This document shows positions 31,601 through 34,600 of a DNA stretch of 64,000 nt, one piece after another. How positions within the stretch are numbered: the first letter of the stretch is position 1; every line of letters starts with the position of its first letter. Made by a program: the position numbers. Source of the DNA: Escherichia coli O157:H7 (lineage in GTDB: Bacteria; Pseudomonadota; Gammaproteobacteria; Enterobacterales; Enterobacteriaceae); the NCBI RefSeq assembly GCF_013167455.1, contig NZ_CP038328.1, one strand, 5' to 3'.

Positions 31601-34600
31601 CAAACTAATTGCACCCAACACTACAGCAATGGTTGTACGCATATCACACTCTGGTGGGTAATTATGATTATTAAAAGCAAACCCTCATAAATACTATAGA
31701 CGGGACGGGATGAAAGTGGGAGTAAAATCAGATAACTACGATCAGGAAAGATAAAAACGGGCGGCAATCAGTGCGCATAAAATAAGGATGATAAGAATGA
31801 ACTCAAAGCGATAACGGCCCACCATACTACCCTCCGCTAAAGGCGGTGCTAAACGTTACCCGCTTAGCACCGTAATTTTCAGGCGCGAGGGGGCGCGCCA
31901 GCATTACTGTTGAAAACTTACGCTGCGGGTTGTGCAGCAGGTTTTGCCGGTTGCTGATGGCTGTGTTTCTTGGCGTGTTTCTTCGCTGCCTGCGCTTTTT
32001 GTTCTGGGGCTTTCTGTTCAGCTTTCGTATTTTTATGATGCTTTTTAGCCGCCTGCGCTTTCTGGGCAGGTGCTGCTTTATGCTGTTTTTTATGATGTGT
32101 AGTTTTCGCCGGCGCTGCTTTGGTGGTCGTCGCAGTCGGAGCAGGTGTGGTCGCAGTCTCTGCAGCAAAGGCGGCAGAAGACAGACCCATAGCAGCGGCA
32201 ACAACCAGAGCTAATACTTTTTTCATTGTCATACCCTCAATTTGTTTTTTCATTTAACCCCACTGCGGGGCCGTTGAAAGAACTATATCCCTGGGAATGG
32301 CAGACTTCCGTGAGTGGTTGGTTTCAGCGTGTAACGATATGTACAAACGCTGAATAAATTACAGCGTTGATAATAACGTATTGTGACTTAAGGAAAATTT
32401 AGCTACCAATAATAGTAGTCTTGATCGGGTTAACTATTTTACTACTTACAAAGCGGTAGAATAACTGCGCATCAGTAATAAATGACACACAGCAAAATGA
32501 ATCCGTTTATTTGGGTACTTATAATCCTGATGACGCTAGACGCGCTGCGGGAATTGGCTGGCGCTTCGTCTATTTTAGGATGGCTATTAACGTTGGTTTG
32601 AGCAGGCAATAAGTCCGGACGGGTATTTACCGCAGTCCGGACTTATTTTTCAGGCGTGCAGACGACGATGCAAACGCGTCCCGACCAGCAGAGCAATGAC
32701 CAGCATCAGAGCAATAAATGCGCCGACGCCGTTCCAGCCATAGTTATGCCAGAAAACACCACCCAGCGTCCCGGCAATACTCGACCCCAGATAGTAACTG
32801 AACAGATACAGCGAGGAGGCCTGGCCTTTAGCGCGTTTTGCGCGGGGGCCGATCCAGCTGCTGGCAACTGAGTGGGCTGCGAAGAATCCTGCTGAGAAGA
32901 GTAACATTCCGGCAAAGATCAGCCACAGCGAGCTGAATAAGGTCATCAGTAAACCAAACAGCATAACCCCCGTCGAAAACAACATCACTGGACCACGCCC
33001 ATAGCGGGTGGTCATGGTTCCGGCTTTGGGTGAGCTCCATGTACCGGTCAAATAAGCCAGCGATAATAAGCCAACCACGGCCTGACTGACATGCCAGGGG
33101 GAGAGCATCAACCGATAGCCGATGTAATTAAACAGCGTGACGAACGACCCCATCAGCAAAAAGCCTTCTGCGAACAATAACGGTAATCCCCGGTCACGCC
33201 AGTGCAGACGAAAGTTGATAAACAACGACTTAGGTCGCAGCGAAGTCGGGCGAAAATGGCGTGATTCCGGGAGGATTTTCCAGAACATCAACGCCGAGGC
33301 TAGCGCGAAACAACCGATAGCCGCCAGAGCAATTCGCCAGTTGAAAAAGTCCGTGAAGACACCACTAATTAAGCGTCCGCTCATGCCGCCAATTGAGTTG
33401 CCGCTGATATACAACCCCATCGAAAAGGCCACGAAACTGGGGTGGATTTCCTCGCTAAGATAAGTCATGCCAACAGCTGCCACGCCACTTAACGAAAGCC
33501 CAATCAAGGCGCGCATAATCAAAATGCCGTGCCAGCTGGTCATCATTGTCGAAAGTAACGTACAAATGGAGGCCAATAGTAGCGCCGTTACCATCACTGG
33601 TTTGCGACCAATGGCATCGGATAGGGGGCCAGTAAACAGCAAACCAATAGCCAACATCGCCGTGGAAATGGACAGTGAAATACTACTGTTCGCGGGCGTT
33701 AAGCCAAACTCCTGCGAAAGCACCGGAAGGATAGGTTGCACACAATAGAGAAGTGCAAATGTTGCCAGTCCGGCAGAGAACAGCGCCAGGGTGACGCGCA
33801 TAAATTGCGGCGTACCGCGTTTAATAAATTGATTTGGCTGAGAAATGCTTTGCTTGTCAGTGTCGCTTGCCGGAGCGCCATCAACAGTTGTAGTACGGCT
33901 CACTTGAAATCCTTGCTAAATATGCCTGTGGATCAGGCTTATACATAGGTTAGGAAAATCGAATTGTTCTGTCTAATATATTAATAATCTCAAATAAGAT
34001 GTTTTAAATATGAATATTGAACTTCGTCATCTGCGTTACTTTGTTGCTGTTGCGGAAGAGCTGCATTTCGGGCGCGCCGCTGCCCGCCTGAATATTTCGC
34101 AACCGCCGCTAAGTCAGCAGATTCAGGCGCTGGAGCAACAAATTGGTGCCCGACTGCTGGCACGAACCAATCGCAGTGTATTGCTGACGGCAGCAGGAAA
34201 ACAGTTTCTTGCAGATAGTCGGCAAATCCTGTCTATGGTGGATGACGCTGCCGCTCGCGCTGAAAGACTGCATCAGGGTGAAGCGGGGGAGTTGCGCATT
34301 GGTTTTACTTCGTCGGCTCCTTTTATTCGGGCGGTGTCCGATACGTTATCGCTGTTTCGCCGAGATTATCCCGATGTCCATTTACAAACCCGCGAAATGA
34401 ACACTCGCGAGCAAATCGCTCCGCTCATTGAAGGAACGCTGGATATGGGATTGCTGCGTAACACAGCGTTACCGGAGACGCTTGAACACGCAGTCATCGT
34501 CCATGAACCGCTTATGGCGATGATCCCGCACGATCATCCCCTGGCAAATAACCCGAATGTAACGCTGGCTGAACTGGCGAAAGAACCCTTTGTCTTTTTT

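What the first reader, a model, noticed from the sequence alone, without database searches (positions are those of the whole stretch)
31742..31825. 27-aa hydrophobic gene missed by the ORF track
MVGRYRFEFILIILILCALIAARFYLS with a GGAGGG SD sits between asr and ydgD, where I recall the K-12 small protein ydgU. It is included as a reminder that sub-60-aa genes are invisible to the supplied track.
Basis: partly seen in the sequence, partly recalled or inferred. Interest (0 to 1): 0.25.

Follow-up and report, generated by a model that had tools for sequence, protein, structure and literature searches.

The report
Known small membrane gene ydgU/samT
The 27-codon ORF is real and is the already-annotated E. 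coli small membrane protein YdgU, renamed SamT in 2026, which dampens the acid-sensing RstB-RstA signalling system; it is a correct catch but not a discovery.

Summary
Window 31742..31825 (minus strand) encodes MVGRYRFEFILIILILCALIAARFYLS. GGAGGG lies 4 nt upstream of the ATG. The ORF sits 92 nt after asr and 99 nt before ydgD.

It is ydgU (b4601):
- 26/27 residues match K-12 (A21 here, T21 in K-12).
- NCBIfam small_YdgU scores 70.3 bits against a cut-off of 24.
- It is present in 5422 of 5426 complete E. coli genomes.
- Twenty of 21 ydgD loci from other genera keep an intact 26-27 codon ORF with a coding-type substitution pattern (pS 0.48, pN 0.16; reversed in the shifted frames).

Published work shows it is acid- and low-Mg2+-induced from the asr promoter. 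It localises to the membrane, binds the kinase RstB and exerts negative feedback on RstB-RstA; it was renamed samT in NAR 2026. An exact RstA box upstream of asr, and rstA/rstB themselves, also lie in the window.

The verdict is already known, low interest.

A covarying 10-bp hairpin plus U-tract sits directly upstream of the ydgU SD in all genera sampled. This suggests ydgU is expressed by terminator read-through. No terminator separates ydgU from ydgD.

The parts
32330..32343 (-). RstA box TACATATCGTTACA, 104-117 nt upstream of the asr ATG. This is the input site of the circuit.
   Evidence: the only match in the 64-kb window and an exact one. About 0.22 matches are expected by chance at up to 1 mismatch. 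The consensus TACATNTNGTTACA is recalled from the genomic-SELEX RstA literature, not verified here. PMC13425233 states that asr is a direct RstA target.
31918..32226 (-). asr, the acid shock periplasmic protein (102 aa) and first gene of the asr-ydgU(samT) operon
   Evidence: Translation; annotation; 100% tblastn match.
31882..31899 (-). First intergenic hairpin GGCGCGCCCCCUCGCGCC (6 G-C pairs), present in Escherichia only, with no U-tract after it
   Evidence: Fold; in alignment A1 it is absent or different outside Escherichia.
31844..31872 (-). Conserved 10-11 bp stem-loop (CGGUGCUAAGCG GGUAA CGUUUAGCACCG), terminator-like
   Evidence: One search finds a hairpin in all 12 species folded; 10 of 10 pairs show compensatory double changes, 97.5% of cells are paired against 36-48% when the partner is slid, and the covariation score is 0.80 against 0.14-0.33.
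31837..31843 (-). U-rich tract after the hairpin (CCUUUAG in E. coli; 5-8 U in Enterobacter, Phytobacter and UBA7338)
   Evidence: Alignment A2 and the upstream sequences.
31830..31835 (-). Shine-Dalgarno GGAGGG, 4 nt before the ATG
   Evidence: The GGAG core is kept at the same position in all Enterobacteriaceae, Erwinia and Izhakiella loci; it is GGGG in Dickeya.
31742..31825 (-). ydgU / samT coding sequence (27 codons plus TGA), a single-pass inner-membrane peptide
   Evidence: literature.
31693..31739 (-). Conserved non-coding DNA block (GTAGnnnnCTGATTTTACTCCCACTTT-N8-CCGnCTATAGT). It is the probable ydgD promoter region, with -10-like TATAGT at 31693..31698. It is not an RNA structure.
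   Evidence: invariant columns out to Erwinia and Izhakiella; 0 conserved pairs, z = +1.41. The promoter role is an inference.
30821..31642 (-). ydgD, a secreted trypsin-like serine peptidase and the conserved downstream neighbour
19419..20720 (-). rstB, the sensor histidine kinase and reported binding partner of SamT
   Evidence: 98.9% nt identity to K-12 rstB, full length; for the annotation.
20724..21443 (-). rstA, the response regulator that activates the asr-samT promoter

Best explanation
The ORF is the gene ydgU (b4601), renamed samT in 2026. It encodes a 27-residue single-pass inner-membrane peptide. The short N-terminus MVGRYRFE faces the cytoplasm. A hydrophobic core of about 15-19 residues spans the membrane, and only about 5 residues lie beyond it. 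It is the second gene of the asr-samT operon. When RstB-RstA is activated (acid pH, or low Mg2+ through PhoQ-PhoP raising rstAB), phospho-RstA binds the RstA box upstream of asr. Transcription that passes the intergenic hairpin reaches samT, which is translated from its own strong SD. SamT then binds the sensor kinase RstB in the membrane and lowers phosphotransfer to RstA. This is a negative feedback loop analogous to MgrB acting on PhoQ. Shown here: the ORF, its SD and its synteny; identity to YdgU; purifying selection on the peptide; and the presence of the RstA box and of rstAB in the window. Shown by others in K-12: acid and Mg2+ induction, translation, membrane localisation, the RstB interaction and the feedback. 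Inferred here: expression depends on read-through of a conserved leaky terminator, and the A21 allele behaves like the K-12 T21 allele.
For: Identity. K-12 annotates ydgU in the same position. The window ORF matches it at 26/27 aa and 82/84 nt. NCBIfam NF052476 small_YdgU scores 70.3 bits (cut-off 24) and NF011341 scores 74.5 bits (cut-off 66). The locus is found in 5422 of 5426 complete E. coli genomes, and newer PGAP annotations name it 'ydgU: small membrane protein YdgU'.

Real coding gene. Twenty of 21 ydgD loci from other species, out to Dickeya, Erwinia and Izhakiella, have an intact 26-27 codon ORF at the same place. Nineteen of them start with ATG and carry an SD; L023 has no ATG at the aligned position. 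Variable columns by codon position are 18, 13 and 25 of 26. Mean pS is 0.48 against pN 0.16 in frame, compared with 0.17/0.26 and 0.16/0.27 in the shifted frames, which carry 25 and 12 stops. M1, Y5, F7, E8, L11, C17 and F24 are invariant.

Membrane peptide. GRAVY is 1.60 and the best 15-residue window has mean hydropathy 3.06; there are two Arg N-terminal and one C-terminal. GFP-YdgU localises to the cell periphery (PMC11429745).

Expression. Ribo-seq log2FC is 9.22 and RNA log2FC is 12.39 at pH 4.4 (PMC10746267). Induction is PhoQP-dependent from the region upstream of asr, with negligible promoter activity immediately upstream of ydgU.

Function. samT alone complements the loss of negative feedback on Pasr at pH 5. 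The effect is lost in rstA D52A/D52E and in the rstB mutants. The bacterial two-hybrid signal between SamT and RstB is strong (PMC13425233).

Circuit parts in the window. An exact RstA box lies at 32330..32343, and rstA/rstB lie at 19419..21443.
Against: All functional evidence comes from K-12 (T21 allele); none was generated here for this window's A21 allele. Position 21 does vary across genera (A/T/I/V), so the difference is probably neutral. The held main text of PMC13425233 does not describe a non-translatable samT allele, so peptide versus RNA was not separated genetically there. SamT also gave weaker two-hybrid signals with PhoQ and EnvZ, so specificity is not absolute. Deletion or overexpression of ydgU gave no growth phenotype under low Mg2+.
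Confidence: 0.88

Rival explanations
1. It is a chance ORF inside the asr 3' region or the ydgD 5' region and makes no functional product.
For: Short ORFs are abundant: 51 ORFs of 20 aa or more overlap 3 kb, and the window holds 368 ATG-ORFs of 20-50 codons. Pfam has no family for it.
Against: The ORF is intact in 20 of 21 loci across several genera, and 19 of them keep an ATG and an SD. pS exceeds pN only in this frame. Only 3 of the 368 short ORFs have a GGAGG SD. There is a curated NCBIfam equivalog. Ribosome profiling and epitope tagging are reported.
Confidence: 0.01
2. The functional entity is RNA, and the peptide is incidental. The RNA could be the asr terminator and 3' UTR, or a 3'-derived regulatory RNA.
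For: A strongly covarying hairpin lies directly upstream of the SD. No start-codon mutant of samT is described in the held main text.
Against: The hairpin lies outside the ORF. Within the ORF, third positions are nearly saturated while amino acids are conserved, which shows selection on the protein and not on RNA pairing. Rfam finds nothing at E<=1. T18-SamT peptide fusions bind RstB, and the effect requires RstB.
Confidence: 0.03
3. It is YdgU, but RstB inhibition is not its main or only role. It could act on other kinases (PhoQ, EnvZ), or it could work with its conserved neighbours Asr and the secreted protease YdgD.
For: Weaker two-hybrid signals were seen with PhoQ and EnvZ. The order asr-ydgU-ydgD is conserved in 20 of 20 loci that have ydgU. 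No terminator or conserved RNA structure separates ydgU from ydgD. The one locus that lacks ydgU also lacks asr.
Against: Feedback on Pasr is abolished in rstB and rstA phosphorylation mutants and is complemented by samT alone, without asr. ydgD has its own conserved promoter-like block. The loci were retrieved through ydgD, so linkage to ydgD is partly a product of how they were sampled.
Confidence: 0.08

Closest known systems
YdgU / SamT of E. coli K-12 (b4601; NCBIfam NF052476; PMC13425233)
   Same: Same locus between asr and ydgD, same length, 26/27 residues, same SD, same upstream hairpin. An RstA box lies upstream of asr, and rstAB lies about 11 kb away on the same strand.
   Different: Residue 21 is Ala here and Thr in K-12. 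The 84-nt allele of this window is found unchanged in 3585 of 5422 E. coli genomes and matches O157:H7-type strains. No experiment exists for this allele.
MgrB (47 aa), the feedback inhibitor of PhoQ
   Same: It works the same way: a small inner-membrane protein whose gene is activated by the two-component system whose kinase it then binds and inhibits (PMC13425233).
   Different: MgrB has a functional periplasmic tail with cysteines, which is established knowledge rather than something tested here. SamT has only about 5 residues beyond the membrane and a single invariant Cys in mid-helix. mgrB is monocistronic, whereas samT is the distal gene of an operon.
UgtS-UgtL operon of Salmonella
   Same: One operon encodes both a positive and a negative modulator of the TCS that transcribes it (discussion in PMC13425233).
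   Different: UgtS acts by antagonising UgtL, whereas Asr and SamT act independently. No homology was tested.

Membership tests
YdgU/SamT small membrane protein (NCBIfam NF052476, equivalog) | Full-length match to the family profile above the curated cut-off | tested here: met
   70.3 bits against a cut-off of 24, covering residues 1-27 of 27. NF011341 also matches at 74.5 bits against 66.
YdgU/SamT small membrane protein (NCBIfam NF052476, equivalog) | Near-identity to the K-12 reference protein b4601 | tested here: met
   26/27 aa and 82/84 nt.
YdgU/SamT small membrane protein (NCBIfam NF052476, equivalog) | Position immediately downstream of asr, on the same strand, with its own SD | tested here: met
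   92 nt after the asr stop, with asr upstream in 20 of 20 orthologous loci.
YdgU/SamT small membrane protein (NCBIfam NF052476, equivalog) | One transmembrane helix and membrane localisation | tested here: met
   One search gives hydropathy only (GRAVY 1.60; best 15-residue window 3.06). Localisation was shown experimentally for the K-12 protein in PMC11429745, not here.
YdgU/SamT small membrane protein (NCBIfam NF052476, equivalog) | RstA-dependent co-transcription with asr | tested here: inconclusive
   An exact RstA-box match lies upstream of asr, and no sigma-70-like promoter was found between asr and ydgU. Actual transcription cannot be tested here and is reported.
YdgU/SamT small membrane protein (NCBIfam NF052476, equivalog) | Physical interaction with RstB and inhibition of RstB-RstA signalling | not testable with these tools
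   Only literature evidence exists, and only for the K-12 allele (PMC13425233). rstB is present in the window.
MgrB family | Sequence homology to MgrB | tested here: not met
   no local alignment at E<=100. The window protein is not a member and is only a functional analogue.
MgrB family | Periplasmic C-terminal region with conserved cysteines | tested here: not met
   The sequence leaves only about 5 residues (RFYLS) after the hydrophobic core, and the single Cys (C17) is inside the helix.

The most novel reading that the evidence does not exclude
The conserved, covarying hairpin plus U-tract that ends 1-8 nt before the samT Shine-Dalgarno is a deliberately leaky intrinsic terminator of asr. 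Terminated transcripts encode only Asr, the positive modulator, which is needed in huge amounts. Read-through transcripts add SamT, the negative modulator, and may run on into ydgD because no terminator follows samT. Under this reading, terminator efficiency sets the ratio of positive to negative feedback on RstB-RstA and could be a regulated step. The U-tract has 3 U in Escherichia and 5-8 U in Enterobacter and Phytobacter. The 2026 SamT paper explicitly leaves open how asr and samT might be differentially expressed, and its held main text does not mention this element.
Probability: 0.45. Interest if true: 0.3.

Novelty: already known. Interest (0 to 1): 0.1.

Why it matters
As a discovery it does not matter. 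ydgU has been annotated in K-12 since the 2008 small-protein surveys, and its function was published in 2026. It matters as a calibration point. A reader with no tools identified a genuine 27-aa gene that a 60-aa ORF track hides, and that gene turns out to be a regulator of an acid- and virulence-related two-component system. The same window holds several other sub-60-aa genes. The only new element here is the conserved terminator-like hairpin abutting the SD. It gives a concrete, testable handle on how the Asr:SamT ratio is set.

Tried and rejected
- Rfam (E<=1) over 30500..33000 found no RNA family.
- The sigma-70 promoter scan over 31400..32500 found no site, so there is no evidence for an internal samT promoter. 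Its only minus-strand terminator hit was a weak stem over the asr stop codon; it missed the conserved hairpin because the E. coli U-tract is too short for its rule.
- Pfam has no family for the peptide.
- The 2008 discovery paper could not be read under PMC2614699, and a PMC id recalled for a follow-up small-protein paper (PMC2798279) was also not held. Protein-level detection is therefore cited second-hand from PMC11429745.
- No supplement text is held for the SamT paper, and the preprint has no terminator information. The transcript sizes from its northern blots could not be compared with the hairpin position.
- A literature search for the asr terminator was swamped by 'asRNA' hits.
- I tried to read the conserved block upstream of ydgD as a sigma-E, sigma-32, sigma-54 or CpxR site by eye. 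None fitted in spacing, so I rejected them. It is left as a promoter-like element with an invariant C-TATAGT.
- I did not run the large protein-database searches, because the family's identity and spread were already settled.
- Two Python calls failed only because locus files hold several records each.

Full report
**Observation.** The ORF exists as described, on the minus strand. Window 31742..31825 runs ATG to TGA, 27 codons, and translates to MVGRYRFEFILIILILCALIAARFYLS. On that strand GGAGGG occupies 31830..31835, followed by TAGT and the ATG. The upstream gene is asr (31918..32226, -) and the downstream gene is ydgD (30821..31642, -). The spacers are 92 nt and 99 nt. The ORF alone is not surprising. 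Fifty-one ORFs of 20 aa or more overlap this 3-kb stretch, and the window holds 368 ATG-ORFs of 20-50 codons over six frames. Only 3 of those 368 have GGAGG 4-14 nt upstream, and all 3 are hydrophobic.

**Identity.** K-12 MG1655 (NC_000913.3) annotates ydgU (b4601, 27 aa, 'uncharacterized protein YdgU') between asr and ydgD. The window ORF differs from it at 2 of 84 nt. One change is synonymous and one gives A21 here against T21 in K-12. Over 701 nt spanning asr to ydgD the window has 6 differences from K-12 and none from many O157:H7-type genomes. NCBIfam has a dedicated equivalog, NF052476 'small membrane protein YdgU', and the peptide scores 70.3 bits against a cut-off of 24. NF011341 also matches, at 74.5 bits against 66. 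Pfam has nothing. The 84-nt ORF is found in 5422 of 5426 complete E. coli genomes. In 3585 of them it is at least 99% identical, which for 84 nt means identical. Older PGAP annotations call it 'hypothetical protein' and newer ones 'ydgU: small membrane protein YdgU'.

**Is it a real coding gene?** I retrieved 21 loci encoding YdgD relatives from one-genome-per-species contigs. Twenty of them carry a YdgU-like frame directly upstream of ydgD. They come from Escherichia species, Citrobacter, Enterobacter, Phytobacter, Pseudescherichia, Erwinia, Izhakiella and Dickeya.
- Nineteen have an intact 26-27 codon ORF with ATG and a GGAG(G) or GGGG motif a few nucleotides upstream. The twentieth, L023, has no ATG at the aligned position and comes from an assembly whose ydgD match is also poor.
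- Across 18 distinct sequences, variable columns by codon position are 18, 13 and 25 of 26.
- Mean pairwise pS is 0.48 against pN 0.16 in frame. The two shifted frames give the reverse (0.17/0.26 and 0.16/0.27) and carry 25 and 12 stop codons.
- M1, Y5, F7, E8, L11, C17 and F24 are invariant.

This pattern is the signature of selection on the peptide. asr lies upstream in all 20 loci, and the single locus without ydgU (Tenebrionibacter, L018) also lacks asr.

**What it does (literature, K-12).**
- Ribosome profiling ranks ydgU third among genes induced at pH 4.4. Ribo-seq log2FC is 9.22 and RNA log2FC is 12.39. The paper places it in the same transcription unit as asr (PMC10746267).
- A study of Mg2+-starvation small proteins found PhoQP-dependent induction from the region upstream of asr and negligible promoter activity immediately upstream of ydgU. 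GFP-YdgU localised to the cell periphery. Deletion or overexpression gave no growth phenotype (PMC11429745).
- A 2026 NAR paper showed that asr-ydgU is RstA-dependent at acid pH and that ydgU alone restores negative feedback on the asr promoter at pH 5. The effect is lost in rstA D52A/D52E and in the rstB mutants. The peptide gives a strong two-hybrid signal with RstB and weaker ones with PhoQ and EnvZ. The authors renamed the gene samT (PMC13425233).

**Consistency with the sequence.** The peptide is very hydrophobic. GRAVY is 1.60 and the best 15-residue window has mean hydropathy 3.06. It has two Arg in the N-terminal MVGRYRFE and one near the C-terminus, which fits an N-in single-pass helix. 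The rest of the circuit is also in this window. The only match to the RstA-box consensus is an exact one at 32330..32343 (-), upstream of asr (the consensus is recalled from the RstA SELEX literature). rstA (20724..21443) and rstB (19419..20720) lie on the same strand.

**Comparison with known systems.** The ORF is a member of the YdgU/SamT family; every sequence-level defining feature that I tested was met. It works like MgrB on PhoQ but is not an MgrB homologue. BLASTP finds no alignment at E<=100, and it lacks a periplasmic tail.

The asr-ydgU spacer contains a stem-loop at 31844..31872 (-). A U-rich tract, the SD and the ATG follow it.
- Every species folded has such a hairpin although the stem sequences differ.
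- On an alignment of 17 sequences, all 10 pairs show compensatory double changes.
- 97.5% of cells are paired, against 36-48% when the 3' partner is slid.
- The covariation score is 0.80, against 0.14-0.33 for the slid versions and 0.37 for the shuffles.
- The U-tract has 5-8 U in Enterobacter, Phytobacter and UBA7338 but only 3 U in Escherichia, which has an extra upstream hairpin at 31882..31899.

There is no internal promoter. Taken with that, the hairpin suggests samT is expressed by read-through of a leaky asr terminator, which would set the Asr:SamT ratio. This is an inference. I could not check published transcript sizes, because the supplement is not held and the main text and preprint do not mention a terminator in this context.

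**Downstream of ydgU.** The 99-nt spacer to ydgD has no conserved RNA structure. No pairs are predicted, and its z-score of +1.41 means it folds less well than its shuffles. It does contain a sequence block that is strongly conserved out to Erwinia and Izhakiella, with an invariant CCGnCTATAGT at 31693..31703. That block looks like a ydgD promoter rather than a terminator, so read-through from samT into ydgD is possible.

**Verdict.** The gene and its function are already known, so interest is low. The residual novelty is limited to the conserved terminator-like hairpin abutting the SD and the lack of a terminator before ydgD.

Noticed in passing
window 31837..31872 (-): A conserved, covarying hairpin plus U-tract lies immediately 5' of the ydgU SD in all genera sampled. 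It looks like a leaky asr terminator. The held text of the SamT paper does not mention it.
   Followed up: yes
window 31693..31739 (-): A non-coding block between ydgU and ydgD is conserved out to Erwinia and Izhakiella, with an invariant CCGnCTATAGT. It has no conserved RNA structure, and no terminator follows ydgU. It is probably a ydgD promoter with an unusual -35 region; the sigma factor or activator was not identified.
   Followed up: partly
window 31660..31672 (-): AATAATCATAATT lies just upstream of the ydgD start (AATAATCATTATT in Pseudescherichia and Phytobacter). By eye it resembles the core of a Fur box, about 13/19 to the consensus as I recall it. It is conserved in most Enterobacteriaceae loci of alignment A1/A3.
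   Followed up: no
window 30821..32226 (-); loci L003-L023: The order asr-ydgU-ydgD is conserved in all 20 loci that have ydgU. YdgD is a secreted trypsin-like peptidase, and Asr is a Lys-rich periplasmic protein that, as I recall, undergoes a second proteolytic processing step. YdgD as the Asr-processing protease is an untested idea. The loci were retrieved through ydgD, so the linkage is partly a product of how they were sampled.
   Followed up: no
window 32482..32601 (+): A 39-aa hydrophobic ORF (MTHSKMNPFIWVLIILMTLDALRELAGASSILGWLLTLV) lies between ynfM and asr. It matches NCBIfam NF033695 'KPN_01571 family protein' at 63.3 bits against a cut-off of 35. O157-type RefSeq records annotate it, but K-12 NC_000913.3 does not, although the sequence is present there. 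Similar peptides turn up in the Enterobacter and UBA7338 loci.
   Followed up: partly
window 29824..29994 (+): A small ORF lies upstream of mdtJ. K-12 annotates the last 33 codons as mdtU (b4777), and PGAP annotates the 56-codon GTG-started frame as YdgV. It is another sub-60-aa gene hidden from the ORF track.
   Followed up: partly
window 59279..59362 (+) and 59398..59502 (+): These are the only other two short ATG-ORFs in the window with a GGAGG SD. Both are hydrophobic (27 aa MIWPEAFAITGVAIAIDFLVYVICRWG; 34 aa MSDDISLAMEGALAVIAVVGVYCLVVFLMDRLGN). They lie in a prophage region between a DUF551 gene and hokD. The 34-aa ORF is annotated as hypothetical (WP_001278450.1). The 27-aa ORF overlaps the DUF551 stop (ATGA) and is not annotated.
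   Followed up: partly
window 31765 (-), codon 21 of ydgU: There is an A21 (window, O157-type) versus T21 (K-12) polymorphism. The window's exact 84-nt allele is in 3585 of 5422 E. coli genomes. Position 21 is A, T, I or V across genera, so the change is probably neutral, but the characterised K-12 protein is not the common allele.
   Followed up: partly
L023:2816-2899: In one Citrobacter amalonaticus assembly the ydgU start reads AGG instead of ATG and the SD has lost a G. The ydgD match in the same locus is also poor (E 4e-90 at 88%), so assembly errors are more likely than gene loss.
   Followed up: no
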